A stretch of DNA of 51,762 nt from Candidatus Vecturithrix granuli (lineage in GTDB: Bacteria; Moduliflexota; Moduliflexia; Moduliflexales; Moduliflexaceae), in NCBI GenBank assembly GCA_000739535.1, contig DF820466.1, forward strand, positions 351,071-402,832, written 5' to 3'. Shown piece by piece: positions 4,501 to 50,624 of this stretch (its first letter is position 1; every line of letters starts with the position of its first letter). The position numbers and the translations under genes are program-made. The notes beneath the pieces were generated by a model. That model was not told where the DNA came from, did not search any database, and was given only the letters and a program-made list of their open reading frames with translations.

Positions 4501-4615
4501 GGTAATGGTTAAATGGGAAGTGATGCGTTCCCTGAGCGAAGTCGAAGGGAACAGTGAGCGGCTCGTTTCGACTTCGCTCAACGAGCGGGCATCACTTCCC
4601 ATTTAACCACTACCC
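4501..4615. repeat. MITE-like element, family A (GGTAGTGGTTAAATGGTAAGTGATG...CATCACTTACCATTTAACCACTACC), flanked by an 8-bp direct repeat CTTGCTTA
   Basis: Seen in sequence as a long imperfect palindrome. Other copies are at 32231-32344 (flanked by CAAATTTG direct repeats), 43164-43278 and 45359-45620 (carrying a nested family B element). Confidence 0.8.
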
Positions 4616-5039: not shown

Positions 5040-5278
5040 AAAGATTTCAGATTTTCCGGCTTTTTTGTGGAACTACAAAGATTGAATTTACAAAGAATTT
5101 GAGATTCATTACAAAATTGGGAATTCAATCCCTTGTAAACTCAATCCTTGTAGTTCCACAAAAAAGCCTTGACTTTCTTCCTGACCCTGCTATAGATCAA
5201 CCGATGTCATGCGAGGAATCAATGTAGGTCGAAACTGAAGTTTCGACCCGGTTACAGGATGAAAAGGAAAGGATTTTT

Positions 5279-7418: not shown

Positions 7419-7440
7419 TTATTCAGCCCGCGAAACACGC

Positions 7441-7745
7441 GAAACACGCGAAAAAAAGAAGATTCTTTCGTGAAGTTATGGAACTACAAGGATTGAGTTT
7501 ACAAGGGATGGGTACTGCGTGTATCCGGCGTCTCAGCAATCCCTTGTTCCCTCAATCCTTCTGGTAGTCTCGCCCTACGTGGCGGGTTTATCGGCGCCAT
7601 TCCCGCCGCGTAGGGCGGGACTACTTTTTTACGAAATTATGTAGTAGTTCCACAACTTGCACGGAAGAACCGAAAAATATATTTTTCAACCAAACGTTCA
7701 ATCCGGTTCTTCCTTTTCGTGTGTTTCGCGTGTTTCGCGGGCAGA
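7441..7745. repeat. Composite insertion between the ATPase and vWA genes: a family C MITE (7481-7655) with a family D element (7561-7625) nested near its right end, all bracketed by inverted CGAAACACGCGAAACACGCG repeats (7440-7460 and 7718-7740)
   Basis: Seen in sequence. The family C right terminus GTAGTTCCACA reappears at 7645-7655, after the inserted GGTAGTCTCGCCCTACGTGGCGGG...GGGCGGGACTAC block. Confidence 0.6.
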
Positions 7746-7749
7746 TCGA

Positions 7750-8955
7750 ATGACAACGCCACATTCAACATCAAAGCCGGAAACATATTTTCTGTGGCCC
7801 TTGTTCCAGCAATTGCGCCGGCGCCATTTTCCGCTGGGGCCAGATGATTATGACGCTTTACGCCAGGCAATTCGCGCCGGATTCGGCTGGCGCTCGCGCC
7901 GGGATTTGCGCAATCTCTGTTGTCGCTTATGGGCCAAATCCCGGCAGGAACGGACAACCTTGTTCGAACTGTTCGAACAATACGATGTGCCTGATTGGGA
8001 TGCGACGCCTTTCTTGAGCGCGGGCGCGGCCCAGAAGCGTGAGCCAGGCGCGAGCAAATCTCTTGCTGAGCCGCCGGCCGCGCCAGAGACGCCAACCGGC
8101 GCAGAGAGCGTGCAGATTGTGGCCGAGGCGCGCGGTGATTTGCCGGAAATCATTGCGTCTATTGAGTTCCCGCAGGAGCCGGTGGTCTTGACTCCGCAGT
8201 TGCCGTTAACCTATCGTGAAGTCGCACAGGCCTGGCGGCGTTTACGCCAGCCGGTGCGCACGGGGCCGGCCATTGATCTGGATTTAGACGCCACCATTGC
8301 GCGGCGCTGCCGGTTGGGCATTGCGGCTGAGGTGGTGTTAACGCCGCGCCGCCGTAACACCGCGCGTTTGCTGCTGTTGGTTGACCGCCAGGGTTCGATG
8401 ACGCCTTTTCACGCTCTGAGCGCGGAAGTCTGTCTGGCAATCGAGCAGGCCGGCAATCTAGAACGGGTCGCGTTCTACTATTTTCACGACGTGCCGGCCG
8501 AAGGCGCGGATGAATCGGTGCTGCACGGCTTAGATCAATTGTTTCCGACTTTAGATACGGTGTTTGCGGAGATTGAGCCGTTGCAGACCGGCACGGTCTA
8601 TGCAGATCCGCAGTTGTTACAGCCTCGCGCCCTGGAAGACGTGCTGGCCGAGGCGGCGCAGGGCGCGGCGGTCGTGATTCTAAGCGACGCCGGGGCCGCG
8701 CGCGGCCGTTACGATCTGCTGCGCCTGCTGGATACGGTCGCCTTTCTCAAAGCCTTGCAAAGCTATACGCGCCGCTTTGTGTGGCTGAATCCGCTGCCAC
8801 GCAAATATTGGGCGCACAGCACGGCCGAACAAATCCAGCGTTACGTCCCTATGTTCGCCTTAGATCGCGCCGGCATGTACCGCGCTGTTAACGTGTTGCG
8901 AGGGAAACCTATAACGGATGAAAGAATGGAACGGATGGGAGACTACAACGAATGA
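7750..8955 (+). CDS. von Willebrand factor A (vWA) domain protein, CoxE-like
   Basis: It has a MIDAS-like LLLLVDRQGSM, a later VVILSDAG (hhhhSDG motif) and a C-terminal FVWLNPLP that resembles CoxE-type vWA proteins. It follows the MoxR-like ATPase. The start is set at the first ATG downstream of the MITE (7750); the ORF-track start at 7657 lies inside repeat sequence. Confidence 0.6.
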   Translation: MTTPHSTSKPETYFLWPLFQQLRRRHFPLGPDDYDALRQAIRAGFGWRSRRDLRNLCCRLWAKSRQERTTLFELFEQYDVPDWDATPFLSAGAAQKREPGASKSLAEPPAAPETPTGAESVQIVAEARGDLPEIIASIEFPQEPVVLTPQLPLTYREVAQAWRRLRQPVRTGPAIDLDLDATIARRCRLGIAAEVVLTPRRRNTARLLLLVDRQGSMTPFHALSAEVCLAIEQAGNLERVAFYYFHDVPAEGADESVLHGLDQLFPTLDTVFAEIEPLQTGTVYADPQLLQPRALEDVLAEAAQGAAVVILSDAGAARGRYDLLRLLDTVAFLKALQSYTRRFVWLNPLPRKYWAHSTAEQIQRYVPMFALDRAGMYRAVNVLRGKPITDERMERMGDYNE

Positions 8956-9060
8956 AGGAATAGAACAAATTTGTAAGAGGCACTCATTCTGTTGTCCTAC
9001 AACGAATTGAGAAATGGAACGGATAAAAGACTACTACAGCATTTCGGAAATAAATATACA

Positions 9061-9176
9061 CTGGTAGTCCCGCCCTACGTGGCGGGTTCATCAGCATCAT
9101 TCTACGTGGCGGGTAGTCCCGCCCGACGTGGCGGGTTCATCAGCATCATTCCCGCCGCGCAGGGCGGGGCTACCAG
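9061..9176. repeat. MITE-like element, family D (GGTAGTCCCGCCCTACGTGGCGGG ... CCCGCCGCGCAGGGCGGGGCTACC), with the internal half-site duplicated
   Basis: Seen in sequence. Other members are at 7561-7625 and in the composite array at 25914-26168. Confidence 0.75.
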
Positions 9177-9245
9177 TGTGTACTTTTTAACGAATTTCTT
9201 TTTCAAATTCGTTTCATTTCTTAATTCGTTGTAGTGTTCATATTG

Positions 9246-10709
9246 ATGCTGCAAGAAAATTTAACGCATGAACAACTTTTAGCGCAGCGGCGGGTACAGG
9301 AGTTTGCGCAGGCGGCAGGGGAAAACGCGCTGCACCTGGCCTGCCATGCGGCTTTGCCGGCGGCGTTGACCCCGGAACTGCTGCACTTGCTGCGCATCAA
9401 TTTTTTTCTGGACCCAAAGGATACAAAGACCGGCGACCCCCTGCCCTATACGGCCGAAACGGATTTGTTGCTCTCACCTTTGTGCCAGGAAATCGGGGAG
9501 CAACTGTATGAAATGCCCTCGGAAGTGCGCAACGTGCTGTTGGAACAGTTGCAGCAAGAGTTTGGCGCAGCGCGCATCCGGCGCGTGGCGGCTTTGCTCT
9601 GGAAATACTCGCTGAATCCGCGCCGCGCGCCCTGGCATGAGAATCGCCGCCTGGAACGCGCGCAGCAGTTGACGGCCCTGAATTTCCTCGATCCGCAGCA
9701 AGCGCGTCAATGGTTAGAACAGGCCGAAGAAAAGCAGGGCCGTAGCAAGACAGACTTGCGCGATTGGTTCATTGCCATGCGGCGCGAACTGCCGCGCAGC
9801 GCGATTCTGAGCGGCGGCGCAAAAACAGAGCCTTCCACAACACCCCAGGAACAGGAGTTCGCCTTTGAGACCGTGCGTGTGGATCGTTACGGCAAAATCA
9901 TTGAACGCCAACGTGAAACCGCCTGGCAGTTTACGGAAGAACTCGGCAACGGCGTTATGCTGGAAATGGTCAGGATTCCCGCCGGCCGCTTCCTGATGGG
10001 CGCGCCGGAATCCGAAGAGGGATCAAGCGACGATGAACGCCCGCAGCACGAGGTGCAGATTGCCCCCTTTTATATGGGCCGCTATCCGGTGACGCAAGCG
10101 CAGTGGCGGGCGGTCGTGGAAGTCGCGCCCCAGATTGAGCGCCCTTTAGAGCCTGATCCCTCGTCTTTCAAAGGTGCACAGCGGCCGGTGGAAAATGTCA
10201 TTTGGGATGACGCGGTGGAGTTTTGCCGGCGTTTGTCGCAGCTCACAGGCCAGGAATATCGCCTGCCCTCGGAAGCGGAATGGGAATACGCCTGCCGCGC
10301 CGGCACGACCACCCCCTTTTATTTCGGAGAGACGATTACTACAGATTTAGCGAATTATGATGGGAGTGAGCCTCCCTACGGCGAAGGACCCAAAGGAGTT
10401 TATCACGAACAGACTACCGAAGTCGGTATATTTCCGCCTAACGCTTTTGGCCTCTACGACATGCACGGCAACGTGTGGGAATGGTGTCTGGATGTGTGGA
10501 ACGATAGTCATAAGAATGCTCCTACAGACGGTAGCGCACGGCAAGAAGGAGCAGACATTAATTTACGTTTGTTAAAAGGCGGCTCGTGGTTCGATCCGGC
10601 CTGGAGCCTGCGTTGCGCTTATCGTATCGGGGTCGGGCGTGACGGCAGGGTCGGCGTCAGGGGCTTTCGTCCGGTGCGGGCTGTCGGCGGCCAGTCTTCT
10701 GATTTCTGA
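9246..10709 (+). CDS. FGE-sulfatase (formylglycine-generating-enzyme fold, SUMF1-like) domain protein with a ~230-aa helical N-terminal domain
   Basis: The C-terminal half (MVRIPAGRFLMGAPE...ERPQHEVQIAPFYMGRYPVTQAQW...NVIWDDAVEFCRRLS...YRLPSEAEWEYACRAGTTTPFYFG...GLYDMHGNVWEWCLD...GGSWFDPAWSLRCAYR) carries the FGE-sulfatase signature. The start uses the ATG at 9246; an in-frame GTG at 9234 is also possible. Confidence 0.8.
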   Translation: MLQENLTHEQLLAQRRVQEFAQAAGENALHLACHAALPAALTPELLHLLRINFFLDPKDTKTGDPLPYTAETDLLLSPLCQEIGEQLYEMPSEVRNVLLEQLQQEFGAARIRRVAALLWKYSLNPRRAPWHENRRLERAQQLTALNFLDPQQARQWLEQAEEKQGRSKTDLRDWFIAMRRELPRSAILSGGAKTEPSTTPQEQEFAFETVRVDRYGKIIERQRETAWQFTEELGNGVMLEMVRIPAGRFLMGAPESEEGSSDDERPQHEVQIAPFYMGRYPVTQAQWRAVVEVAPQIERPLEPDPSSFKGAQRPVENVIWDDAVEFCRRLSQLTGQEYRLPSEAEWEYACRAGTTTPFYFGETITTDLANYDGSEPPYGEGPKGVYHEQTTEVGIFPPNAFGLYDMHGNVWEWCLDVWNDSHKNAPTDGSARQEGADINLRLLKGGSWFDPAWSLRCAYRIGVGRDGRVGVRGFRPVRAVGGQSSDF

Positions 10710-12611: not shown

Positions 12612-12752
12612 CGGAGTGTCAAAGCTCTGCTTTGACAGCGAAAGCAGAGCTTTCGTACTCCGGGAGCTAACTTTGACAGCGAAAGCAGAGCTTTCGCACT
12701 CCGGGAGCTAACTTTGACAGCGAAAGCAGAGCTTTCGCACTCCGGGAGCTAA
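12612..12752. repeat. Repeat family J: a hairpin-pair element (GTCAAAGCTCTGCTTTGAC / CGAAAGCAGAGCTTTCG) followed by three tandem 41-nt copies
   Basis: Seen in sequence. Related copies lie at 1-35 (cut by the window edge) and at 32375-32423 (a perfect 49-nt palindrome). Confidence 0.75.
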
Positions 12753-20497: not shown

Positions 20498-20905
20498 ATG
20501 AATGAACACATTGTCGGAACAATGAGGATTGGAATAATGGTTGAACAAGGCGAATTGATGCAAAAAAGCAAAAGCCGCACACCGCGTATGAAGCGCCGCG
20601 ACAAACGGATTTTGACGGAATTTGCCACTTTAGTCCGGCAGCAATTTCCGGATGCCCGCATCTGGGCCTTTGGCTCACGGGTGAAGGGGACAGCCACAAA
20701 AGAATCGGATTTGGATGTCTGCGTTGTATTGCCGACCTTAACTCGTGCGATTGATCATACGCTCATGGGCGTTGCCTGGCAAGTCGGATTCGACCATGAG
20801 GTCGTGATTTCGACCGTGACCTACTCAACAGAAGAATTTGAACGCGGGCCCTGTTCGCAAAGTGCGTTAGTCCACAATATTTTAACACAGGGGGTACAGG
20901 CATGA
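20498..20905 (+). CDS. Minimal nucleotidyltransferase (MNT) domain protein
   Basis: The Pol-beta-like NTase motif GSRVKGTATKESDLDVCVV (GS...DxD) is present. ATGA overlap with the downstream HEPN gene. Confidence 0.8.
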   Translation: MNEHIVGTMRIGIMVEQGELMQKSKSRTPRMKRRDKRILTEFATLVRQQFPDARIWAFGSRVKGTATKESDLDVCVVLPTLTRAIDHTLMGVAWQVGFDHEVVISTVTYSTEEFERGPCSQSALVHNILTQGVQA

Positions 20906-21318
20906 CGGCGGAAATGCAAGCGTTAATCAGCTATCGTGTCGAGCAGGCGGATGAAGCCCTGGATTCCGCTCAATCGTTATTGGAGCGCGGTAACTATCGT
21001 TCTGTGGTCAATCGGGCGTATTATGCCATGTTTTATGTTGTGCTGGCGTTGCTTGCGCCGATGAAACAACAAACCTCCAGACATGCATGGGTCATGACGC
21101 TGTTTGACCGGGATTTCGTCAAAATGGGGGTGTTTGGCAAAGATTTTTCACGTTGGTTGCACGAAGCGTTCAATCTTCGCCAGCGCTCAGATTATCAAGA
21201 ATTGTTTACCGTGCCGGTCGAAGACGCACAAACTGTACTTGAGCATGCTCAGCAGTTTGTGGCGGGCGTGAAAACGCATATCACCTCACAGCTTTCAACG
21301 TCAGACGCTGGGGATTAA
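20902..21318 (+). CDS. HEPN domain protein (MNT-HEPN pair)
   Basis: It is helical and carries an R-x(4-6)-H-like motif region RQRSDYQ. It is translationally coupled to the MNT gene. Confidence 0.7.
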   Translation: MTAEMQALISYRVEQADEALDSAQSLLERGNYRSVVNRAYYAMFYVVLALLAPMKQQTSRHAWVMTLFDRDFVKMGVFGKDFSRWLHEAFNLRQRSDYQELFTVPVEDAQTVLEHAQQFVAGVKTHITSQLSTSDAGD

Positions 21319-21465
21319 GTAACTACAAGAATGAAGAATAAACAAGAATTTTCAGACCGTTGCTGAATAGCAATGTTTGTTTGAAAAAAAGTGCGACTAT
21401 CAGGCAAAAACCAGAAAATCCTTGCTTATAAAAAATCCTTGTAGTTATTTAAGAGACGTGTAAGC

Positions 21466-24400
21466 ATGATGACAGAAAAAACATATCAGGTCTTTCTGAG
21501 TTTTAACAGCCAGGATCGGGAGGCAGTGGAACAGATTGCTCTGTATCTGGCTGACAAGGCCGGGCTTCGTCCCTGGTTCGATCAATGGGAACTGATTCCG
21601 GGAGAACCGTGGACCCGCAATCTGGAACGCGGACTGGCAGCCTCTGCAACCTGCGCCGTGTTTGTCGGCAAGAGCGGCGAAGGCCCCTGGCAAATCCGCG
21701 AAGTCGAAACCGCGCTGCGGCACCAGGTCGAGAACTATGACTTCCGGGTCATTCCCGTGCTCTTGCCGGACGCTCCGCAAAAACCGGCGCTCCCCATGTT
21801 TCTCTCCGGGAATATGTGGGTTGACTTTCGTAAAGCCGGACTTGAAGATGACGACGCGCTCTGGCGGTTAGAATGCGGCATTCGCGGAAAATCGCCGGGA
21901 CGCGGCCGTCCGCAGCCAGCCGAACAAATCCAGGAAGACCAGGGAGAGCACAATCAGATCACGCCCGGATTTGACCCCACGCCTCTGCGCAACGCCTATC
22001 TGCGCTGGCTGCTGGAGCAGAGCAGTCAGCTTTCGCTGGCCGGCATTGACAAAAAAGCGGCCGGCAAAGGCGCGGAAGACCATTTAAATTTGAGCGCGAT
22101 TTATACGGCCCTGCTGACGCTTGAAGCTGAGCATGAGCGCGATCAGAAACCGGGTTTTTTGGAAAAACCCGGTTTCTCGTCCGAGGAAAGATCGCAGCGC
22201 CGCCTGTCGGCCGTGGCCCAACTCAACCGTCACGCCCGGTTAGTGCTCTTAGGCGACCCCGGCAGCGGTAAGAGCACCTTTGTCAATTTTGTGGTTTTAT
22301 GTCTGGCCGGAGAACTCTTATTCCCATCGGAAAATGGGCAAGAACCTGCCGACGGGAAAGAGGTTTACCCGAATCTGAAACTTTTGACCGCGCCGCTGCC
22401 GGATGATGAAGGCAACGATGCAGAGGAACCCCAGCCCTGGGAGCATGGCGCGCTGCTGCCGGTGCGCGTGATTCTGCGCGACTTCGCGGCGCGCGGTCTG
22501 CCGCCGGCCGGGCAGGAGGCTAAAGCCAGACACTTATGGCAGTTCATCGTCAAAGAATTACAGGCGAACATGCTTGGCGACTACGCTCCCTTTCTGCGCC
22601 AGCACTTGCAGAGCACAGGCGGTCTGATGCTGCTGGATGGCCTGGATGAAGTGCCGGAAGCGGACCAGCGCCGCCCGCAGATCAAGCAGGTGGTCGAGGA
22701 TTTCGGCCGCTGCTTTCCGCGCTGCCGTATGCTCGTCACCAGCCGCACCTACGCCTATCAGGAGCAGCACTGGCGCTTGAGCCATTTTGAAGACGTCACG
22801 CTGGCGTCTTTCAGCCAGGGACAAATCCGACGTTTTGTGGAGCGCTGGTACGCCTATATCGGCCGTCTGCGCGGCCTGAGCGCGGAGAATGCGCAGGGAC
22901 GGGCGGAATTGCTCAAGCGGGCGATCCTGAACAGCGACCGGCTCTACAGTCTGGCCGAACGGCCCCTGCTGCTGACGCTCATGGCCAGTCTGCACGCCTG
23001 GCGCGGCGGCAGCCTGCCGGAAAAACGCGAAGAACTGTATAACGATACCGTAGATTTGCTGCTCGACTGGTGGGAAAGTGCGAAAATGGCGACTACCGCC
23101 GATGGCAGTCGCAAGCTTGTGCAGCCCAGCCTGACCGAATTGCTCAATGTGGGCAAAGACTGCGTGCGCACAGCGTTGAATACCCTGGCGTTCCGGGCGC
23201 ACAAAGACCAGCAGCAGCTTCAGGGCACCGCCGATCTTGCCGAAACGGATCTGGTGGCTGAACTGATGGAAGTCAGCCAGAATCCAGACCTGAAGCCCGG
23301 GCGGTTAATTGAGCACCTCCGCGACCGCGCCGGATTGCTGGCGCCGCGCGGGGTCAAGGTCTATACCTTTCCGCACCGCACCTTTCAGGAATATCTGGCC
23401 GCCTGTTATTTGACCGAGGTGCAGGACGAGGACGAGCAATACCCGGAAAATGCCGCCCTTTTAGCGCGCCAGGAACCAAACCGCTGGCGCGAAGTGGCGT
23501 TGCTGGCCGGGGCCAAAGCCGCGCGCGGCAGCGCGCCGACCCTCTGGGCTTTGGCCGACGCCTTGTGTTATCAAGACGTGTCCGACACTTCTGACCTGGC
23601 TGACGCCTGGGGCGCGCTGCTGGCCGGCCAACTTGTAGCGGAAAACGCCGGCCTGCATAAGATCAGTCCACGCAACCAGGCCAAAATCAAGCGCATTTGT
23701 GAGTGGCTGGTCGCTATTGTCACAGAACGTGTTCCCTTCGACTCCGCTCAGGGAACGGGAACGGTCTTGCCGGCCGTGGAACGTGCACTGGCCGGGAACA
23801 TCCTGGCGCAGCTTGGGGACCCGCGTCCGGGCGTGGGCTGTCGCTTCCGTTCCCTGAGCGGAGTCGAAGGGAGCGGAGTCGAAGGGAGCGGAGTCGAAGG
23901 GAGCGGAGTCGAAGGGAGCGGAGTCGAAGGGAGCATGAGGCTGCCGAATATTGAATGGTGTGAGGCGTCGGCCGGGGCATTTATTATGGGCAGTGATGAC
24001 TACAGTGATGAACGTCCGCCGCATCGCGTGACGCTTTCAAGATCCTACGCCCTCAGCCGCTATCCGGTCACCAATGCGCAATATCAGACCTTTGTGACGG
24101 ATGGAGGTTATACGGAGAAATGGCAGACATGCTGGTCAAAAGATGGATGGAAATGGAAAGAAGAGCACGCGAAAACCGGACCAGGGAAATATGGCGGGGA
24201 GTTTGACCTGCCCAATCATCCGGTGATTGTGGTGTGCTGGCATGAGGCTGCCGCATTTTGTCAATGGTTGACGCGCCGTTTGCAGAAAATAGGGGAGTTG
24301 ACGGCGGATCAAGAAATTCGTTTACCGACTGAAGCTGAATGGGAAAAAGCGGCGCGCGGTGCGGATGGCCGCACCTATCCCTGGGGCAATGAGGCGATCA

Positions 24401-24741
24401 CACCGGAACATGCCAATTATGACGATACCGGCTTAGGCGTGACAAGCGCGGTCGGCTGTTTTCCGCGCGGCGCAAGCCCCTGCGACTGTGAAGACATGAG
24501 CGGCAATGTGTGGGAGTGGTGTTTAGATAGTTGTGATTTGGATAAGAATTATAATCTTGTCACTGATACCTACACTGATGGTATTATTGATCCACTCTGT
24601 ACAACGGGCTCGGACCGCGTGCTGCGGGGCGGCTCCTGGAGCAGCGACGCCAGGGGTTGCCGGTCGGCGTTCCGCTACGGGGGCGCCCCCGGCGACCGCA
24701 GCGGCATCGTCGGGTTCCGCCTCTTGAGGACGCCTTCGTAG
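21466..24741 (+). CDS. STAND NTPase with TIR N-terminus, central NACHT domain and a C-terminal FGE-sulfatase-like domain
   Basis: TIR: YQVFLSFNSQDREAVEQIALYLADK...WFDQWELIPGEPW. NACHT: Walker A LVLLGDPGSGKSTF, Walker B MLLDGLDEV, then TSR. FGE: FIMGSDDYSDERPPHRVTL...YPVTNAQY...RLPTEAEWEKAARG...GNVWEWCLD...GGSWSS. An in-frame (SGVEG)x5 tandem repeat and a KPGFLEKPGFS segment inside it are derived from dispersed repeat families. Confidence 0.85.
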   Translation: MMTEKTYQVFLSFNSQDREAVEQIALYLADKAGLRPWFDQWELIPGEPWTRNLERGLAASATCAVFVGKSGEGPWQIREVETALRHQVENYDFRVIPVLLPDAPQKPALPMFLSGNMWVDFRKAGLEDDDALWRLECGIRGKSPGRGRPQPAEQIQEDQGEHNQITPGFDPTPLRNAYLRWLLEQSSQLSLAGIDKKAAGKGAEDHLNLSAIYTALLTLEAEHERDQKPGFLEKPGFSSEERSQRRLSAVAQLNRHARLVLLGDPGSGKSTFVNFVVLCLAGELLFPSENGQEPADGKEVYPNLKLLTAPLPDDEGNDAEEPQPWEHGALLPVRVILRDFAARGLPPAGQEAKARHLWQFIVKELQANMLGDYAPFLRQHLQSTGGLMLLDGLDEVPEADQRRPQIKQVVEDFGRCFPRCRMLVTSRTYAYQEQHWRLSHFEDVTLASFSQGQIRRFVERWYAYIGRLRGLSAENAQGRAELLKRAILNSDRLYSLAERPLLLTLMASLHAWRGGSLPEKREELYNDTVDLLLDWWESAKMATTADGSRKLVQPSLTELLNVGKDCVRTALNTLAFRAHKDQQQLQGTADLAETDLVAELMEVSQNPDLKPGRLIEHLRDRAGLLAPRGVKVYTFPHRTFQEYLAACYLTEVQDEDEQYPENAALLARQEPNRWREVALLAGAKAARGSAPTLWALADALCYQDVSDTSDLADAWGALLAGQLVAENAGLHKISPRNQAKIKRICEWLVAIVTERVPFDSAQGTGTVLPAVERALAGNILAQLGDPRPGVGCRFRSLSGVEGSGVEGSGVEGSGVEGSGVEGSMRLPNIEWCEASAGAFIMGSDDYSDERPPHRVTLSRSYALSRYPVTNAQYQTFVTDGGYTEKWQTCWSKDGWKWKEEHAKTGPGKYGGEFDLPNHPVIVVCWHEAAAFCQWLTRRLQKIGELTADQEIRLPTEAEWEKAARGADGRTYPWGNEAITPEHANYDDTGLGVTSAVGCFPRGASPCDCEDMSGNVWEWCLDSCDLDKNYNLVTDTYTDGIIDPLCTTGSDRVLRGGSWSSDARGCRSAFRYGGAPGDRSGIVGFRLLRTPS
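22146..22176. repeat. Family F terminator-like palindrome embedded in frame inside the NACHT gene
   Basis: gaaaccgggttttttggaaaaacccggtttc, encoding KPGFLEKPGF. It is identical in core to the intergenic copies at 1940, 30594, 35427 and 50355. Confidence 0.7.
23857..23931. repeat. Five tandem 15-nt copies (gagcggagtcgaagg) inside the NACHT CDS, seeded by a 23-nt match to the internal segment of family A MITEs
   Basis: gttccctgagcggagtcgaaggga at 23849-23872 is identical to 45535-45558 inside the family A element. The array encodes SGVEGSGVEGSGVEGSGVEGSGVEG between the NACHT/helical region and the FGE domain. Confidence 0.75.
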
Positions 24742-24764
24742 CCCTTGATCCTTTTACCCTTTTA

Positions 24765-24791
24765 CCCTTTGCGCAGCAAAGGGGGTTTTTC
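24765..24791 (+). terminator. Rho-independent terminator candidate for the NACHT gene (ccctttgcgcagcaaaggggg + TTTTT)
   Basis: Seen in sequence, 24 nt after the stop codon. Confidence 0.5.
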
Positions 24792-25211
24792 CTGCGGGCG
24801 AGGCGACAGCCGCCCGCCGCTGCGCGTGCGATAGCCGCGCAGCGCGAAAAATTTTTTTAAGGCCCGGGGAAGAGATTGGTCTGGGAATTCAGCCCCAGGA
24901 ACGCCGGACTATGTTTGGGAAATGACAGGAGAGTTGGAGAACTCCAGGGACAAGAGATAAGAAGAGGATGAGATTGAAGGCACTTTGGCATGGGGGAGAA
25001 CTACAAGAATGGCATGTAAGCAAGAATCAGGGCGCGGCCGGTACAACGAATTAAAGAATAAAACGAATTTCCCCATCTCATTCGTTGATTTCTTTAATTC
25101 GTTGTAGTGGTTCGACTGCTGATATGATAAAGAATTGCCGGTTGACAAAAATCAAGAACAGATATATCATAAACTGTAAACAGATAACATCATGAAACAG
25201 AGGAAGACGGT

Positions 25212-25469
25212 ATGGCAAACATGGCAGAACAGCAATTATTGACTCGCATTGTTGTGAATCCCAAAATGATGGTCGGTAAGCCTGTCATTAAAGGCACGCG
25301 CCTGACCATTGAATACATTCTCGGATTATTTGCCCACGGCGCGACAGCCGCAGAGATTTTAGAGGAATATGAAGGTTTAACCTATGAAGATTTGCAAGCG
25401 TGTTTCCTCTTTGCCTCAAAATCTCTGGAAAGTACGCTGTTTATGCCTTTGGCAATGGAGGCCGCATAA
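25212..25469 (+). CDS. DUF433 domain protein (antitoxin-like partner of DUF5615)
   Basis: MVGKPVIKGTRLTIEYILGLFAHGATAAEILEEYEGLTYEDLQACFLFA matches the DUF433 core. Confidence 0.65.
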   Translation: MANMAEQQLLTRIVVNPKMMVGKPVIKGTRLTIEYILGLFAHGATAAEILEEYEGLTYEDLQACFLFASKSLESTLFMPLAMEAA

Positions 25470-25819
25470 ATGCGCTTTCTTGTCGATGAGTGACTGGCCC
25501 GGCTGTCGCTCGATGGCTGCGAACACAGGAGCATGACGTGTTCTCCGTATATGATGACGCTCGCGGGTTAGACGATAATGAGATTATCCAAAAAGCCTTT
25601 GCAGAAAATCGTATTCTTATTACGAATGATAAAGATTTCGGAGAAAAAATTTTCCGTGAGAACTATCCCCACAAAGGCGTAATTCTATTACGGCTTGAAG
25701 ATGAGCGTTTCAGAAATAAAATAGCCGTTCTTCGGAGTTTTTTCCATACATATCCAGATATTTCTCTGACAGAACGGTTTGTTGTGATTACAGAAACAAA
25801 AATTCGTTTTGTTGGATAA
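25470..25819 (+). pseudogene. DUF5615 (PIN-like) gene with an apparent frameshift after codon 7
   Basis: The ATG at 25470 gives MRFLVDE, then a stop. The remaining ~100 codons continue in another frame from 25490 (ARWLRTQEHDVFSV...ILITNDKDF...), which is the typical DUF5615 body. This is either a true frameshift or a sequencing indel. Confidence 0.5.
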
Positions 25820-25913
25820 CGGTTGACATCAAGATATTGTTGGCAAAATGATCGTATTCATCACACTCGCCTCTTTGGGTTAATTCTTCCGAACAGCCTG
25901 GAACTAGTACATA

Positions 25914-26168
25914 CTTTCGGATATAAGTACACAATGAAATAAATCTGGTAGCCCCGCCCTACGTGGCGGGAATGACTTTCGGATATAAGTACACAATGAA
26001 ATAAATCTGGTAGCCCCGCCCTACGTGGCGGGAATGACGCCGATAAACCCGCCACGTAGGGCGGGACTACCAATAAACTACCAATAAACCCGCCACGTAG
26101 GGCGGGACTACCAATAAACCCGCCACGTAGGGCGGGACTACCAATGTGTATTTATTTCCGAAACGCTG
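25914..26168. repeat. Composite family D array: a duplicated 62-nt left unit and three tandem ~30-nt right units (CCCGCCACGTAGGGCGGGACTACCAATAAA), bounded by the inverted flanks ctttcggatataagtacaca / tgtgtatttatttccgaaacg
   Basis: Seen in sequence. Confidence 0.7.
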
Positions 26169-30396: not shown

Positions 30397-30637
30397 AACA
30401 AACCCTCCTTGAAGATGTGAGTGAAAATTAGATGAACACAATTACGACCAATGGGCATCCATACTCATTTTCTGGATGCACTTCTCTGGCGAAGGGTAGA
30501 AATGCCCTTTACCAAACAACTTCCGTGTATATTCAATCCGACAGCTTTGTCAAGTGAAAAAATCCTTTCTTCTATGGATATTTGATAGCACCTAAAAACC
30601 GGGTTTCTTCAAGAAACCCGGTTTTTCTATCAGATTA

Positions 30638-32230: not shown

Positions 32231-32344
32231 GGTAGTGGTTCCATGGTAAGTGATGCCCGCTCGTTGAGCGAAGTCGAAACGAGCCGCTCACCGTTCCCTT
32301 CGACTTCGCTCAGGGAACGCATCACTTACCATGGAACCACTACC
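32231..32344. repeat. Family A MITE copy flanked by 8-bp direct repeats CAAATTTG
   Basis: Seen in sequence. It is adjacent to the family J palindrome at 32375-32423. Confidence 0.8.
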
Positions 32345-32442
32345 CAAATTTGTTGTGATACGTCGAGTTATCCCGGAGTGCGAAAGCTCTGCTTTCGCTG
32401 CAAAAGCAGAGCTTTTGCACTCCTGCCTTCCTGTTGTGAAGG

Positions 32443-35172: not shown

Positions 35173-35479
35173 ACATCCTCCTCCTCTTTTGACAATCCTA
35201 TCCATTCAATGTTCACGTTTGATTGCCTTTTATCGCAATCAGTCTCTCCAATACTCATCCGATCTAATGATATTTTTGAGCTAACATTTCAGAAGGTTCG
35301 AACCTTGTCAATAGAGAATTTATGTCAGATGTGCTGAATGTCGCCTCTCGTCATTGAAAGAAGAAAAGATTCATGTTTTTGTCTTGACGGAGATGGCGAG
35401 CACCCAGGGAAATGGGATAAATTTTCAAAAAACCGGGTTTTTTCAAAAAACCCGGTTTTTCGACTCCTGATGGCTTTTC

Positions 35480-37996: not shown

Positions 37997-38350
37997 TTCT
38001 CCTGGGGATCAACCACAGATTTCGCAGATTTCACAGATTTTCACATCCGAGAAATCTGCAAAAATTTGTGGCGATTTTTTTCGACTTCAGTGGTTTCGGG
38101 AATGAACCTTCAAATTTCCGAAACGCTTTCTGTTTCGGGAAAGCCGTTTCCTTCATTCCCGAAACAACTGAAACTCAAATGTCAAAAAGATCAATTAAAA
38201 AATCATCATACAATTTTCTTTACTTTGTATAATATGTGAATATAAAAGAGACAACTTTTTCCTGAAAAAAATATCTTTCTGAATTGAAGATCGTGAAAAG
38301 ACCCTGTAACATTATCCTTGATTTTTAGAGAACAATGGGAGGAAATAGGT

Positions 38351-40543
38351 ATGAAAATCCGACGATTCATGTTTGTGACCATAAGTGCTCTGCTACTCAT
38401 GATGTTATTCTCTTGTGCGACGGAAACAAGTAAAAAGCCTGTCAAAAGAGGTTCACAAGCTAAAAAAAGTTCGATGTACAAGCATCTGGCGACCTTACAA
38501 GAAGCCGATTGTAGCGGGGTTAGACCAGGAACAACCGGATCGTTGGTCGCGGATAGCGGCTTTCGTCCCCATCCGCATGGGTTCAGTTTTCCCAACTACA
38601 GCAAAGAATTTCCGGAAGGGAATTTGAAGGTAGAAGATGCGCGGATGCTGTTTGGCGATCAGATTTGTAAAAGCATCAAAGATGGCAAATGTCTGCCGAC
38701 CACGGCTGCTCATCTCTGGATCAAAAATATGAATGCCGCGATGGAGGATGGACATTGCGAAGGCATGGCAGTGCTCAGCTCACTGTTCTTTAGAGAACAA
38801 AGCCAGATTCAAGAATACGGACAAACCACAACCTTTAAGTTGACCCCTGAAAAAACCTCTCTATTGCGTTCGATTGCTGCTTACTGGACGCTTCAAAGTC
38901 TTGAGCCGGTCATCTCTGAATCGTTGTACTATCAAACCAAAACCCCGGCTGAAATTCTGCGCACACTGATTGAGGCGCTGAAAACCGGACAGGAGTTTTA
39001 CACTTTGGGAATTTACGGCAGTTTTGGCGGACACTCGATCACTCCCTATGCCGTGGAAGATATTGGAAAGGGCATCTTTTGGATTCATGTGTATGACAAC
39101 AACTATCCCTGCACCTATAAATATGTCGAAATAGATACCAATCTAAATACCTGGCGTTATGCGGCAGGGGTCATCAATCTCGATGAAGAGCCAATGCCCT
39201 GGGAAGGGAGCACCGGCAGCATTGACTTAACCTCGCTTTCCATCCGCCAACAACCAGTAGAATGTCCTTTTTGTCAAGATGCTCAAACCGGATGTGGTTC
39301 TGGGGGCAGGTTGGCTGTGCTGATGAATAGTAAAGACAGCACGATCAATGCAACCAATCAGTCCGGACAGCAGGTTGGGATTGATGAAATGGGGCGGATC
39401 GTGAATCAGATTCCCGGCGCAAAGCTTTTGCAGTTCAAAGGACCTGAGATGAGCAATGTGGATAAACGTGGTTTGTCCCCATCCGTTCTACGTTCGACGC
39501 TTATCATGCTTCCGCCAGATCCACAATACACTTTTAACCTCACAGGCCATGCAACACTTCAACAGTCAGAAACTGCACAGATTGGAGTATTTCAGCCCTG
39601 TCAGGCATTTACGATTGATCAGATCGCTCTGAAACCAGGGCAGCAAAATCAACTCATCATTGCCAACGGTAATCACTTTCGATACACTCCCGGAGATAAA
39701 GATTCGCCGCAATTTCGCTTCGCTACCTACGCTCCGAGGGCAGTTGATGGCTTATATACGGTGCAGGATATTACCCTCAATGAAGGCGCAATTTTTGATA
39801 TTAAAATTGATCTGGAAACCAATAAAATCAACATCAGCGATGATGATCCTGAACTGGATTCCTTTGATCTCGACGTGACGATAGTCGATGAAGATGGAAA
39901 CATCGAGAAGATGTCTTATGATGATATTGAAGCAGGCGATGAAGGTCAAGCGATCTTTGATGTAGATGAAGAAGGAAATTGGGATCTTGAAATCGACGCC
40001 GACAGCGACGGCTTGATTGATGATGAAGATTTTGATGATGACAACGATGGAGTTGTTGATGATGACGACATTGATGATGACGGCGATGGGATCTCTGATG
40101 ACGAAGATCTGGAAGAAGACTACGATGACGAAGAATTTGACAATGAAGAGTTTGACGATGACGAAGGCTATGACGATGATGAGTATGATAGTAACGATGA
40201 TGATGGGGATGGTGATGATGACGGTGATAACGGTGAGAGCAACGATGATGAGGGCGATGACGGTGACAGCGGTGACGATAAGAGCGATGGTGATGATGAG
40301 GGCAGTGACGATGAGAGCGATGATGATGAAAGCGACGACGATGACGGCAGTGATGATGATGGCGGTGACGATGAGAGCGACAGCGATGACGGCGGTGACG
40401 ATGAGAGCGACAGCGATGACGGCGGTGATGATGAGAGCGACAGCGATGACGGTGGCGATGATGGCAACGATGATGACGGCGGTGATGATGAGAGCGACAG
40501 CGATAACGGTAGCGATGATGATGACGACGGCGATGATGAATAA
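38351..40543 (+). CDS. Secreted lipoprotein with a ~520-aa N-terminal globular region and a ~200-aa C-terminal poly-acidic (D/E/S/G) low-complexity tail
   Basis: A lipobox-type signal is present (MKIRRFMFVTISALLLMMLFSCATE). The RBS is GGGAGGAAATAGGT before the ATG at 38351. The C-terminus is DDDGDGISDDEDLEEDYDDEEFD...(GGDDESDSDD)n, and the period-30 nt tandem repeats that encode it are visible in the DNA from 40330 to 40520. Confidence 0.6.
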   Translation: MKIRRFMFVTISALLLMMLFSCATETSKKPVKRGSQAKKSSMYKHLATLQEADCSGVRPGTTGSLVADSGFRPHPHGFSFPNYSKEFPEGNLKVEDARMLFGDQICKSIKDGKCLPTTAAHLWIKNMNAAMEDGHCEGMAVLSSLFFREQSQIQEYGQTTTFKLTPEKTSLLRSIAAYWTLQSLEPVISESLYYQTKTPAEILRTLIEALKTGQEFYTLGIYGSFGGHSITPYAVEDIGKGIFWIHVYDNNYPCTYKYVEIDTNLNTWRYAAGVINLDEEPMPWEGSTGSIDLTSLSIRQQPVECPFCQDAQTGCGSGGRLAVLMNSKDSTINATNQSGQQVGIDEMGRIVNQIPGAKLLQFKGPEMSNVDKRGLSPSVLRSTLIMLPPDPQYTFNLTGHATLQQSETAQIGVFQPCQAFTIDQIALKPGQQNQLIIANGNHFRYTPGDKDSPQFRFATYAPRAVDGLYTVQDITLNEGAIFDIKIDLETNKINISDDDPELDSFDLDVTIVDEDGNIEKMSYDDIEAGDEGQAIFDVDEEGNWDLEIDADSDGLIDDEDFDDDNDGVVDDDDIDDDGDGISDDEDLEEDYDDEEFDNEEFDDDEGYDDDEYDSNDDDGDGDDDGDNGESNDDEGDDGDSGDDKSDGDDEGSDDESDDDESDDDDGSDDDGGDDESDSDDGGDDESDSDDGGDDESDSDDGGDDGNDDDGGDDESDSDNGSDDDDDGDDE

Positions 40544-40633
40544 GGAGAGTGTAAACGGAAGTGCGCTCTGATAGATTTTACTAGCCGAGGCGGCCTCCGT
40601 CTGACAGCGAGGCTGCCTCCCATGCTCGAATCG

Positions 40634-43110: not shown

Positions 43111-43539
43111 TAGCCTTCTCCTTCTGTAAATGGAATTCTCATCCGCGCCTGTTAAAAAAACTGGGTAGTGGTTAAATGGTAAGTGACATCCGCTCGTTGA
43201 GCGAAGTCGAAACGAGCCTGGACGTGTTCCCTTCGACTCCGCTCAGGGAACGCATCACTTACCATTTAACCACTACCCTCTTGTGTTGTTCATCTTTGCC
43301 AGTTTTTCAAGGTGAAATTGTAATATTTTAAGAAATGCTCTATAAAGGAATCTATTTTCTGTCAATTATTTTCTGAAAAAAATTCATGAAATTTTTTATT
43401 TAGTTCTGAAAATATAGATAATAACTACGGAACTAAAGGAATAAAGCTACAGGAATGAGGAATAAACAAGAATAAAATGCCATATCAGCAGAAAGAAACG
43501 ATTCTTGCTTATTCCTCATTCCTGTAGCTTTATTGCTGC

Positions 43540-45358: not shown

Positions 45359-45620
45359 GGTAGTGGTTAAATGCAATAGTTCGGACAGTTTTCGTCTTAC
45401 CCCCCTTTATCCCCCCGTAAACGGGGGGAAACTGGAGAGGGGACGTGTCCTATCTGCTTCCCCCCGCTTGCGGGGGGATTGAGGGGGGTGGAATCAAAAC
45501 TGTCCGAAGTATTGTAAATGCTAAGTGATACTGTTCCCTGAGCGGAGTCGAAGGGAACACGTCCAGGCTCGTTTCGACTTCGCTCAACGAGCGGATGTCA
45601 CTTACCGTTTAACCATTACC
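45359..45620. repeat. Family A MITE carrying a nested family B MITE (45375-45516) with a TAAATG target duplication
   Basis: Seen in sequence. The family A left end GGTAGTGGTTAAATG is interrupted by CAATAGTTCGGACAGTTTT...AAAACTGTCCGAAGTATTG, after which TAAATG repeats and family A resumes to ...CGTTTAACCATTACC. Confidence 0.8.
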
Positions 45621-50337: not shown

Positions 50338-50624
50338 AACGGCTAAAGTTGGTAGAAACCGGGTTTTTCCGAAAAAACCCGGTTTCTTACACGCTCAGCC
50401 GAAAATCAGATGTCGCGCGAAACTCCAGTTTCGCGGCTGTCAACGGATGCGCGAAACTGGAGTTTCGCGCGACATTTTCAGGGGAACTTCCATGAGCGTA
50501 GGCTCACCCGATGAAATGAAACTACAAGGATTGCGTGTAGGAAGGATTCTTGACGGCAAATTGGTCGGCGTGACCCCGAACCCTGCCTCTGAGAATCCTT
50601 CCTACACCAAATCCTTGTAGTTTC

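What the first reader, a model, noticed from the sequence alone, without database searches (positions are those of the whole stretch)
22146..23931. MITE-derived sequences embedded in frame inside the NACHT gene, one expanded into a 5x tandem SGVEG repeat
Seen in sequence: 22146-22176 is the family F terminator-like palindrome, otherwise found only between genes, here translated as KPGFLEKPGF. 23849-23872 is a 24-nt exact match to the internal segment of family A MITEs (gttccctgagcggagtcgaaggga), followed by five 15-nt tandem copies that encode (SGVEG)5 just upstream of the FGE domain. The reading frame is preserved across both. This either shows exaptation of mobile-repeat DNA as flexible linker sequence in a sensor protein, or marks a repeat-mediated variable region. 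Tandem 15-mers can also expand or contract by slippage, which would alter linker length.
Basis: seen in the sequence. Interest (0 to 1): 0.65.

Follow-up and report, generated by a model that had tools for sequence, protein, structure and literature searches.

The report
Hairpin repeats translated inside immune-sensor gene
Three short hairpin-forming repeats of the kind scattered between genes sit in frame in flexible loops of a bacterial NLR-like immune-sensor gene, and one has stuttered into five copies; this kind of event is known, but it is unusually well documented here.

Summary
Most homologs lack all three. The three sites are indel hot spots where other homologs carry other repeats, and they model as coil or low-confidence loops.

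'MITE-derived' is only partly right. The gene copies have no MITE ends. The 26-nt hairpin is found across many bacterial phyla, with an invariant 14-nt loop (TGAGCGRAGTCGAA) and a covarying stem. It flanks a large subfamily of ~97-aa GIY-YIG nuclease genes, like the published Ssn/SRM system, though it fails the SRM consensus.

The array is a slippage expansion. Homolog P0361 has the same junctions with one unit, and GAGC(N11)GAGC supplies the microhomology. Related arrays vary in length between near-identical contigs.

Best reading: tolerated in-frame hairpin insertions in permissive linkers, comparable to Rickettsia palindromic elements. Two points remain unexplained: mirrored arrays with five right-hand units in three diverged genes, and a module-phylogeny break at the left hairpin. 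Interest is moderate.

The parts
21466..24741 (+). Host gene: a 1091-aa TIR - NACHT (STAND NTPase) - FGE-sulfatase (C-type-lectin fold) protein, intact reading frame
   Evidence: ORF list and translation. Pfam: TIR_2 9-131, NACHT 357-462, FGE-sulfatase 833-1088. At least 2278 homologs were found, the best 63% identical.
22146..22176 (+). Site 1 insert: family-F palindrome (14-nt arms, 3-nt loop), read as KPGFLEKPGF (residues 228-237), about 25 residues before the Walker A motif
   Evidence: It is absent from the closest homolog P0001, where it appears as a 10-residue insertion. The site is an indel hot spot that holds other palindromic repeats in P0002, P0005 and P0023. AF2 pLDDT is below 50 over 222-238. 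It is not called as a terminator on the + strand.
23727..23757 (+).
   Evidence: It is a 31-nt exact match to MITE copy 43222-43252 (D12). Most homologs lack it. It is present at the same site and in the same frame in P0003, P0017, P0016, P0361 and P0363. It lies in the coil 753-769 between helices.
23758..23847 (+). Conserved native coding segment between the two hairpin arms (GTVLPAVERALAGNILAQLGDPRPGVGCRF); the helix at residues 770-783 lies within it
   Evidence: The segment is conserved in all 60 aligned homologs. AF2 gives a helix at 770-783 with pLDDT about 90.
23848..23872 (+). Site 3 insert: the hairpin in forward orientation (C-GTTCCC-TGAGCGGAGTCGAA-GGGA), read as RSLSGVEG
   Evidence: It matches family-A internal hairpins exactly. 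It replaces the native E/Q-D-G of homologs. P0361 has the same junction sequences.
23856..23934 (+). Perfect tandem array of the 15-nt unit GAGCGGAGTCGAAGG, 5.3 copies, encoding (SGVEG)5
   Evidence: Tandem Repeats Finder, 100% identity. Alignment to P0361 DNA shows a clean 60-nt (4-unit) gap. AF2 pLDDT is below 50 over 803-819. All six frames of the array are open.
4501..4614 (.). Family-A MITE copy: about 24-nt terminal inverted repeats enclosing the twin hairpin, with an 8-bp direct repeat CTTGCTTA at both ends
32231..32344 (.). Family-A MITE copy, with CAAATTTG at both ends
43164..43277 (.). Family-A MITE copy whose hairpin plus 5 flanking nt equals the site 2 insert
   Evidence: (D12).
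45510..45620 (.). Family-A MITE copy with a degenerate left end
35422..35460 (.). Closest intergenic family-F palindrome. Others lie at about 1936-1970, 30590-30625 and 50350-50385. All sit between genes or at gene 3' ends.
   Evidence: (D5).

Best explanation
Three copies of short, genome-wide dispersed hairpin repeats became fixed in frame in three structurally permissive, indel-tolerant loops of a TIR-NACHT-FGE sensor gene.

The elements:
- Site 1 holds a terminator-like palindrome (family F).
- Sites 2 and 3 hold one and the same 26-nt hairpin, GTTCCC-TGAGCGGAGTCGAA-GGGAAC, in opposite orientations. They lie on either side of a conserved helix just before the FGE/C-type-lectin domain.

What the hairpin is:
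- It is not specific to the window's MITE.
- It belongs to a family found across many bacterial phyla, with an invariant 14-nt loop and a covarying stem.
- It flanks a large subfamily of about 97-residue single-domain GIY-YIG nuclease genes. This is the same gene-between-hairpins layout as the published Ssn nuclease and its SRM hairpins.
- How it spreads is inferred, not shown: a hairpin- or single-strand-specific process involving such a nuclease.

Why copies survive inside genes:
- The hairpin is free of stop codons in 5 of 6 frames.
- The net insertions are multiples of 3.
- They fall in loops.

The array: the right-hand copy ended in GGGAGC, which creates GAGC(N11)GAGC, a 4-nt direct repeat 15 nt apart. 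Slipped-strand mispairing expanded it from 1 to 5 units. This adds a Gly/Ser/Glu-rich, probably disordered 25-residue stretch to the linker.

Shown: presence, frame, absence from most homologs, the one-unit state, array length variation elsewhere, the hairpin's distribution, covariation and GIY-YIG association.

Inferred: the insertion mechanism, the slippage, and that the effect on the protein is neutral or merely tolerated.
For: Presence and absence:
- Most of the 60 best homologs lack all three inserts.
- Codon-level comparison with P0001, P0002, P0016 and P0023 confirms this.

Permissive sites:
- The same three sites carry at least five other repeat-type peptides in other homologs: SPLEGGKGGV, LSEVEG, CQGxKPWQG, GEGPGVRA, PSTHSGQ.
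- DNA was checked for P0002 and P0023.
- AF2 (mean pLDDT 83.7) gives pLDDT below 50 at 222-238 and 803-819, and coil at 753-769.

No MITE ends in the gene.

Hairpin family:
- On 61 copies not selected by the search pattern, 77.6% of stem cells pair versus 55% in shuffles. Cells changed on both sides number 87 versus 34. Slid controls pair at 29-44%.

GIY-YIG link:
- Eight nuclease ORFs in the fetched loci lie between hairpins, at about -35 and +285 to +300 relative to the start codon.
- In an independent set of 116 GIY-YIG proteins found through the nuclease core alone, 98 have annotated extensions. Of these, 84 contain hairpin-encoded peptides such as ...GFDSAQP...RSLSGVEGN.
- Published parallel: Ssn/SRM (PMC11893778).

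Expansion:
- P0361 DNA reads CGTTCCCT(GAGCGGAGTCGAAGG)x1GAGCAT. The window reads the same with x5.
- 45 metagenome contigs carry arrays of at least 2 units, in coding and non-coding contexts.
- L113 and L136 differ by an in-frame 42 nt within about 96% identical flanks.

Frames.
Against: - Three diverged genes (window, P0003, P0017) all have exactly five right-hand GVEG units. P0003 and P0017 also have mirrored (PFDSA)n arrays on the left. That is more regular than free slippage predicts and could mean selection on length or homogenisation.
- The same hairpin sits at the same site in the same frame on at least three different NACHT backbones. Chance plus tolerance does not fully explain this.
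- The source genome's own GIY-YIG gene was not seen. There is none in the window.
- The hairpin does not fit the published SRM consensus.
- The low pLDDT of the inserts is partly expected, because most aligned sequences lack them.
- P0003 and P0017 were examined as proteins only.
Confidence: 0.72

Rival explanations
1. Recombination joints. The hairpins mark, and perhaps promote, exchange of the C-terminal sensor module (hairpin, helix, array and FGE domain) between different NACHT backbones. They would act as short shared homology or as hairpin/ssDNA-nuclease targets. On this view the cassette travels with the FGE module.
For: - In the FGE region (826-1091) the window protein and P0003 are sisters in 199 of 200 NJ bootstraps, at 77% identity.
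- In the NACHT region (240-745) they are never sisters (0 of 200), at 53% identity. The window's nearest relative there is P0001 at 71%.
- The identity switch falls at residues about 750-765, which is the left hairpin.
- NTS/dRS3 hairpins in Neisseria are discussed as recombination sites and as modulators of transforming ssDNA.
Against: - The site is a domain boundary, where viable chimeras would be selected with or without hairpins.
- P0003's NACHT region is about equally distant from every other sequence, so faster evolution contributes.
- P0017 shares the hairpins but neither module with P0003.
- No DNA-level breakpoint could be mapped because P0003 DNA was not retrievable.
Confidence: 0.15
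2. Adaptive exaptation. The Gly/Ser/Glu-rich array, and its mirror on the left in relatives, is a selected flexible linker of defined length that tunes how the FGE sensor domain communicates with the NACHT module.
For: - Three genes at 53-61% identity each have exactly five GVEG units.
- The inserts bracket the helix just before the sensor domain and are predicted to be disordered.
- The reading frames in use (SGVEG, PFDSA) are the least charged of the six.
Against: - Most family members, including the closest homolog and the DGR-linked ones, work without any insert.
- P0361 has one unit.
- The units are 100% identical at the DNA level, which indicates recent expansion or homogenisation rather than long protein-level maintenance.
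- No functional data exist.
Confidence: 0.1
3. Nucleic-acid-level function. The inverted hairpin pair forms a long stem in the mRNA or in single-stranded DNA that regulates translation, mRNA stability, or replication and recombination across the sensor-domain junction.
For: The predicted RNA fold of 23700-23960 pairs the left copy with the right copy in a long stem enclosing the 92-nt segment. MFE is -125.3 kcal/mol, z = -3.9, and 0 of 200 shuffles fold as well. In P0003 and P0017 the mirrored arrays would make the stem far longer (inferred from the peptides).
Against: - Any inverted repeat pair gives such a fold.
- There is no covariation evidence for the long-range stem.
- No Rfam family matches.
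- P0016 and P0363 have only one arm.
Confidence: 0.05
4. Assembly artefact. The tandem array or the palindrome was created by mis-assembly of repeat-containing reads.
For: Repeats do break assemblies. P0361's contigs end in another repeat. The window's own protein is absent from the large protein collection.
Against: - The 79-nt array is shorter than ordinary reads.
- The frame is preserved across all three inserts.
- The same architecture occurs in independent assemblies: P0003 and P0017 from NCBI, and P0361 from two separate sequencing runs.
Confidence: 0.02

Closest known systems
Rickettsia palindromic elements (RPEs) and other intragenic MITE or ERIC insertions
   Same: These are dispersed palindromic repeats found in frame inside unrelated protein-coding genes, at positions compatible with the fold. 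They add a peptide segment without destroying the gene (review PMC10969869).
   Different: RPEs are about 100-150 bp and are described for Rickettsia. Here the units are 26-31 nt, of different sequence, in a KSB3-lineage bacterium. One has expanded into a 15-nt tandem array, and two form an inverted pair around a helix.
Ssn-related motifs (NTS/SRM hairpins) and SsnA, the single-domain GIY-YIG ssDNA nuclease family (Chenal et al. 2025, PMC11893778)
   Same: Both involve short hairpin repeats (20-50 nt) dispersed in many copies. They are spread across phyla and flank genes for nucleases of about 94-100 residues that consist of a GIY-YIG domain only, in a hairpin-gene-hairpin layout.
   Different: - The family-A hairpin does not match the published SRM consensus.
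- It has a 14-nt invariant loop rather than a conserved 5' flank.
- The nearest solved relatives of its nuclease are UPF0213 proteins. Membership of cd10448 could not be tested.
- NTS are reported to be rarely intragenic (2%), whereas this hairpin is often in long open frames.
- No cleavage data exist.
Bacterial MITEs (the window's family A; Nezha and similar)
   Same: The gene copies match the internal hairpin of family-A MITEs exactly. The left copy shares 5 extra flanking nt with one subfamily.
   Different: There are no terminal inverted repeats and no target-site duplication in the gene. In a Moduliflexus genome the twin hairpin occurs without those ends (L025).
Slippage-prone coding tandem repeats (contingency loci)
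   Same: A perfect short tandem array in a coding region, with documented length differences between homologs and between near-identical contigs.
   Different: The unit is 15 nt, so length changes never shift the frame. This allows linker-length variation, not on/off switching.
DGR-diversified NACHT/STAND-CLec 'antigen sensor' genes of multicellular bacteria (Dore et al. 2024, PMC10907252)
   Same: The host gene has the same TIR/NACHT/FGE-CLec architecture. Two homolog loci have bAvd plus reverse transcriptase immediately downstream.
   Different: There is no reverse transcriptase, Avd or template repeat in this window. The repeats studied here lie at the N-terminal edge of the FGE domain, not at its variable C-terminus.

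Membership tests
MITE insertion (window family A) | Terminal inverted repeats at both ends of the inserted copy | tested here: not met
   The TIR pattern GGTAGTGGTTAAATGGTAAGTGAT (up to 3 mismatches) occurs only at the four intergenic copies and never in 21466-24741.
MITE insertion (window family A) | Target-site duplication flanking the insert | tested here: not met
   Intergenic copies show 8-bp direct repeats (CTTGCTTA, CAAATTTG). No direct repeat flanks the gene copies.
MITE insertion (window family A) | Sequence identity to other family copies | tested here: met
   24-nt and 31-nt exact matches, but to the internal hairpin only.
In-frame palindromic-repeat insertion (RPE-like phenomenon) | A dispersed palindromic repeat lies inside an ORF with the frame preserved, and homologs lack it | tested here: met
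In-frame palindromic-repeat insertion (RPE-like phenomenon) | The insert lies in a structurally permissive (loop or surface) position | tested here: met
   AF2 shows coil or low pLDDT at all three inserts, and all three are indel hot spots in the family. Caveat: low confidence is partly expected for lineage-specific inserts.
In-frame palindromic-repeat insertion (RPE-like phenomenon) | Sequence membership in an RPE family | not tested
   No RPE sequence was compared. The difference in size (26-31 nt versus about 100-150 bp) and host makes membership implausible. The claim here is 'works like', not 'is a member'.
Ssn-related motif (SRM/NTS) | Match to the published degenerate SRM consensus HGTCWYN(0-2)YYVSBRHN(0-5)WNVSBRGN(0-2)RNCYNB | tested here: not met
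   The regex does not match the family-A twin hairpin on either strand. It does match another window repeat at 25948-25977 and 26010-26039.
Ssn-related motif (SRM/NTS) | Hairpin repeat flanking genes for small single-domain GIY-YIG nucleases | tested here: met
   Eight ORFs lie between hairpins. Of 98 homologs with annotated extensions, chosen through the nuclease core alone, 84 run into hairpin-encoded peptides.
Ssn-related motif (SRM/NTS) | The associated nuclease belongs to CDD family cd10448 (Ssn) | not testable with these tools
   No CDD models are available. Pfam gives PF01541 only, NCBIfam gives nothing, and the nearest solved structures are UPF0213 proteins 1zg2 and 1ywl.
Ssn-related motif (SRM/NTS) | Strand-specific ssDNA cleavage next to the hairpin by the cognate nuclease | not testable with these tools
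   This requires biochemistry.
Structured hairpin element | Compensatory stem changes around a conserved loop | tested here: met
   All 6 stem pairs show changes on both sides. The covariation score is 0.609 versus 0.217 in shuffles (0 of 500 reach it), and slid controls score 0.09-0.17.
Intrinsic terminator (family F copy in the gene) | G+C-rich stem followed by a T run on the transcribed strand | tested here: not met
   The scan of 21300-24900 does not call 22146-22176 on the + strand. The stem is followed by TCGTCC. The intergenic copies sit at gene 3' ends.
Phase-variable contingency repeat | The repeat unit is not a multiple of 3, so copy changes switch the frame | tested here: not met
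   The unit is 15 nt. All observed length differences are in frame.
DGR target gene | Nearby reverse transcriptase and Avd, and a template repeat matching the 3' variable region | tested here: not met
   There is no RT or Avd ORF downstream and no second copy of 24561-24745 in the window. Homolog loci L148 and L149 do have bAvd plus RVT_1. A remote DGR elsewhere in the genome cannot be excluded.

The most novel reading that the evidence does not exclude
Hairpins of a GIY-YIG (Ssn-like) nuclease system have been co-opted inside NLR-like immune-sensor genes as 'joints'. Sitting at module boundaries, they would promote exchange of the hairpin-flanked sensor cassette between NACHT backbones. They would also give slippage-driven, length-constrained linker variation (five units in three diverged genes, with mirrored arrays). 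This would be a second diversification layer beside DGR hypermutation of the same domain.
Probability: 0.1. Interest if true: 0.8.

Novelty: new variant of a known kind. Interest (0 to 1): 0.45.

Why it matters
In-frame survival of selfish palindromic repeats is a known curiosity from Rickettsia. This case adds four things.

- It links intragenic repeat peptides (SLSGVEG, PFDSAQG and similar) to a hairpin found across many bacterial phyla. That hairpin flanks a very large GIY-YIG nuclease subfamily, extending the recently described Ssn/SRM idea to a hairpin that the published consensus misses.
- It provides a clean 'before and after' pair, one unit versus five with identical junctions, for how such a hairpin seeds a coding tandem repeat.
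- It places the event in NLR-like sensors. In these genes linker length and module exchange could matter for immunity, and the module phylogeny changes at the hairpin.
- It has an annotation consequence. Many GIY-YIG ORFs and hypothetical proteins are annotated as running through these hairpins, and the resulting peptides are repeat translations, not domains.

Tried and rejected
Searches that found nothing useful:
- Rfam, whole window at gathering threshold plus two permissive local scans: only chance-level hits.
- Full-text search for the core sequences and peptides: no relevant paper.
- Metagenome scan for the gene-specific array junction: 0 hits, so strain-level copy-number variation at this locus could not be assessed.
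- DNA for Ca. Vecturithrix P0003 and P0017: not on record. Their mirrored arrays therefore rest on peptide sequence.
- GIY-YIG relatives in viral contigs, by single protein and by profile: none.
- tblastn of the nuclease against plasmids: two weak hits only.
- NCBIfam for the nuclease: nothing.
- The 91-residue cassette against 1.84 billion representatives: only 62 hits. It did yield P0361 and P0363.

Hypotheses tested and rejected:
- The family-A hairpin as a member of the published SRM: the consensus does not match.
- DGR involvement of the repeats: no RT, Avd or template repeat in the window, and the repeats lie at the wrong end of the FGE domain.
- The gene as the source of the hairpin: rejected because of the hairpin's distribution across phyla and its GIY-YIG association.
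- An invertible-segment reading of the inverted pair: not pursued. The enclosed 92 nt encode a universally conserved helix in one orientation only.

Seen but not relied on: the native codons for (P)FPxVER in P0001 (CCGTTCCCTACTGTCGAACGC) resemble parts of the hairpin. This holds for only one of five homolog DNAs, so I treat it as coincidence.
Full report
**Observation.**
- The window holds one long ORF at 21466-24741. It encodes a 1091-residue protein with TIR (9-131), NACHT (357-462) and FGE-sulfatase (833-1088) domains.
- At 22146-22176 there is a perfect palindrome with 14-nt arms and a 3-nt loop, read as KPGFLEKPGF.
- At 23849-23872 there is a 24-mer identical to the internal hairpin of two family-A MITE copies and one mismatch from two others. 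None is expected by chance.
- Tandem Repeats Finder reports 23856-23934 as 5.3 perfect copies of a 15-nt unit, translated SLSGVEG(SGVEG)4S.
- The four other family-F palindromes lie between ORFs.
It is a 31-nt exact match to MITE copy 43222-43252 (D12) and is read as VPFDSAQGT.
- The two copies bracket 92 nt that encode the conserved segment LPAVERALAGNILAQLGDPRPGVG.

**Context.**
- A conserved YgfK-like enzyme in the window has its best named relatives in candidate division KSB3, at 67-68% identity. The source is therefore a KSB3-lineage bacterium.
- The gene is flanked by MNT/HEPN and DUF433/DUF5615 pairs.
- A TIR / MoxR-like AAA / VWA / FGE gene set lies upstream.
- NACHT-CLec(FGE) proteins with TIR effectors are the architecture described as DGR-diversified putative antigen sensors of multicellular bacteria (PMC10907252).
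- Two homolog loci do carry bAvd and a reverse transcriptase just downstream.
- This window has neither of those genes, nor a template repeat.

**Are these insertions?**
- The protein has at least 2278 homologs, the best 63% identical.
- In an alignment with the 60 best, most lack all three segments.
- At the codon level, site 1 is a 10-residue insertion relative to P0001.
- Site 2 replaces a 6-residue loop with 12 residues.
- Site 3 replaces E/Q-D-G with 32 residues, which is about 27 nt plus four further 15-nt units.
- The same three positions are indel hot spots. Other homologs carry other repeat-type peptides there:
  - SPLEGGKGGV from a C6/G6 palindrome;
  - LSEVEG from this same hairpin family, at site 1 of P0023;
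  - CQGxKPWQG, GEGPGVRA and PSTHSGQ.
- An AlphaFold2 model (mean pLDDT 83.7) puts all three inserts in coil. pLDDT is below 50 at 222-238 and 803-819, and the left insert lies in the coil 753-769 between two helices.
- Low confidence is partly expected for lineage-specific inserts. Taken together with the indel pattern, I regard these as permissive loops.

**What the hairpin is.**
- The gene copies have no MITE termini. The about 24-nt terminal repeat occurs only at the four intergenic copies, two of which show 8-bp target duplications.
Hits came from Cyanobacteria, Geobacter relatives, Bacteroidota, spirochaetes, Thiothrix, Moraxellaceae, Gemmatimonas, Aquificaceae, Dehalococcoidia and a Ca. 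Moduliflexus.
- In Moduliflexus the twin hairpin lacks the window's MITE ends.
- The hairpin is usually accompanied by a second hairpin with the complementary loop and a different stem.
- On 61 copies not selected by the search pattern:
  - the 14-nt loop is invariant apart from its single R (A/G) position, and the 6-bp stem covaries;
  - 77.6% of stem cells pair versus 55% in shuffles;
  - 87 cells are changed on both sides versus 34;
  - slid controls pair at 29-44%.
- Rfam has nothing comparable.

**Link to GIY-YIG nucleases.**
- In the fetched loci, eight small GIY-YIG ORFs lie between hairpins. One hairpin sits about 35 nt before the start codon and another at +285 to +300, the ORF's 3' end.
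- As an independent test, I built a profile of the nuclease core only. It found at least 7928 proteins.
- Of the best 116, 98 are annotated with extensions. Of those, 84 contain hairpin-encoded peptides, typically ...GFDSAQP...RSLSGVEGN.
- That peptide is exactly the element in the NACHT gene, so the hairpin is the cognate flanking repeat of this nuclease subfamily.
- The layout matches that described for Ssn. Those are about 94-residue GIY-YIG ssDNA nucleases whose genes are flanked by NTS/SRM hairpins, compared by the authors to an insertion sequence (PMC11893778).
- Membership is not established:
  - the published SRM consensus does not match this hairpin;
  - the nuclease's nearest solved relatives are UPF0213 proteins;
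  - cd10448 membership cannot be tested here.
- The SRM consensus does match another repeat in the window (25948-25977 and 26010-26039). Its first 12 nt equal the Neisseria NTS.

**The tandem array.**
- Homolog P0361 is also TIR-NACHT-FGE, 49% identical, and was assembled from two sequencing runs. It has both hairpins as single units.
- Its right junction reads CGTTCCCT-GAGCGGAGTCGAAGG-GAGCAT. The window reads the same with five units. The alignment shows one clean 60-nt gap.
- The one-unit state already contains GAGC(N11)GAGC, a 4-nt direct repeat 15 nt apart. That is what slipped-strand mispairing needs (inference).
- Arrays of 2-5 units of the same 15-mer occur in 45 metagenome contigs, in unrelated coding and non-coding contexts.
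- Arrays of up to 9 units occur in the representative library.
- L113 and L136 carry the same ATPase gene with about 96% identical flanks. They differ by an in-frame 42-nt indel in the array.
- The hairpin is open in 5 of 6 frames, and the array in all 6.
Variation at this particular locus could not be checked, because the junction scan found nothing.

**Unexplained regularities.**
- Ca. Vecturithrix P0003 and P0017 carry (PFDSA)n arrays on the left (5 and 8 units). This is the reverse-complement reading of the same 15-mer.
- Each also carries exactly five GVEG units on the right, as in the window. This rests on peptides only.
- The two arms share an inward GGAACG duplication. They are predicted to pair in a long stem (MFE -125.3 kcal/mol, z = -3.9).
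- The window protein and P0003 are sisters for the FGE region in 199 of 200 bootstraps (77% identity). They are never sisters for the NACHT region (0 of 200, 53% identity). The switch falls at about residues 750-765, where the left hairpin lies.
- P0017 shares the hairpins but neither module.
- These facts are compatible with module exchange at or near the hairpin and with some constraint or homogenisation of array length. A domain boundary would be a favoured breakpoint anyway, and P0003's NACHT region is divergent from everything.

**Site 1.**
- The family-F palindrome resembles bidirectional terminators found at gene 3' ends.
- In the gene its stem is followed by TCGTCC, and the scan does not call it on the sense strand.
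- It folds as a 14-bp-arm hairpin and is open in all six frames.
- I read it as another tolerated palindrome in a hypervariable pre-Walker-A loop.

**Verdict.**
- The finding is real and better described as follows. Hairpin repeats of dispersed, probably nuclease-associated families are fixed in frame in three permissive loops of an NLR-like sensor, and one was expanded by slippage.
- This works like the in-frame Rickettsia palindromic elements (PMC10969869), and the hairpin itself works like an Ssn-related motif. Membership in either named family is not shown.
- I rate it a new variant of a known kind, of moderate interest.
- The open points worth follow-up are the module-boundary coincidence, the repeated five-unit arrays and the hairpin-nuclease pairing.

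Noticed in passing
window 25913-26150 (also 7563-7632 and 9063-9181): Another hairpin repeat family (GGTAGYCCCGCCCTACGTGGCGGGAATGAC) sits just downstream of the NACHT locus. Two copies (25948-25977 and 26010-26039, minus strand) match the published SRM consensus for Ssn nucleases. Their first 12 nt (CGTCATTCCCGC) equal the Neisseria NTS.
   Followed up: partly
L148 5285-6694; L149 6327-7804: Homologs P0002 and P0023 have bAvd plus a reverse transcriptase (a diversity-generating retroelement) immediately downstream of the NACHT-FGE gene. My reading, not tested: the window protein's C-terminus (RGGSWSSDARGCRSAFRYGGAPGDRSGIVGFR) resembles a DGR variable region. No RT, Avd or template repeat is in the window.
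   Followed up: partly
window 5279-10709: A gene set encoding TIR (388 aa), MoxR-like AAA (330 aa), VWA (432 aa) and FGE-sulfatase (491 aa) proteins. It resembles the 'ternary conflict systems' described for multicellular bacteria. Its TIR gene is a paralog of the NACHT gene's 5' end (D14/D19, 35, 76).
   Followed up: partly
window 20498-21318 and 25212-25819: The NACHT gene is bracketed by a nucleotidyltransferase/HEPN pair and a DUF433/DUF5615 (PIN-like) pair. By domain content these look like toxin-antitoxin modules and a defence-island-like neighbourhood; that is my reading, not tested.
   Followed up: partly
protein set P0241-P0360 (GIY-YIG homologs): Most annotated ORFs of this nuclease subfamily run 30-75 residues past the about 97-residue core into translated hairpins (GFDSAQP...RSLSGVEGN). 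Database 'C-terminal extensions' of these proteins are therefore probably repeat read-through, not domains.
   Followed up: partly
L150 about 3250-3337 (P0361 gene, 3' end): The P0361 gene leaves the FGE domain after CQWLT and runs into another palindromic repeat (cccctctcc...ggagagggg), then a stop at the contig end. This is either a disrupting repeat insertion or a repeat-induced assembly break.
   Followed up: no
L113 about 5200-5560 and L136 (reverse strand) about 2190-2550: A P-loop ATPase gene carries the same hairpin array in frame (I judged it DnaC/IstB-like by eye). Two about 96% identical contigs differ there by a 42-nt in-frame indel.
   Followed up: partly
window 45400-45490: A cluster of C6/G6 palindromes (cccccc...gggggg) lies next to a family-A MITE. 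The same kind of palindrome is what homologs P0002 and P0023 carry in frame at site 1, read as SPLEGGKGGV.
   Followed up: partly
window 38318-40543 (repeats 39995-40549): A 741-residue ORF with no Pfam match ends in a long, degenerate tandem array. The periods are 15, 30 and 60 nt, encoding Asp/Glu/Gly/Ser-rich repeats.
   Followed up: no
window 12630-12752; also 1-35 and 32373-32423: A 41-nt unit (CTTTGACAGCGAAAGCAGAGCTTTCGCACTCCGGGAGCTAA) is repeated three times in tandem. Related single copies lie at the window start and right next to the family-A MITE at 32231-32344.
   Followed up: no
window 50625-51308: An ORF with a DDE_5 transposase domain lies just after a family-F palindrome.
   Followed up: no
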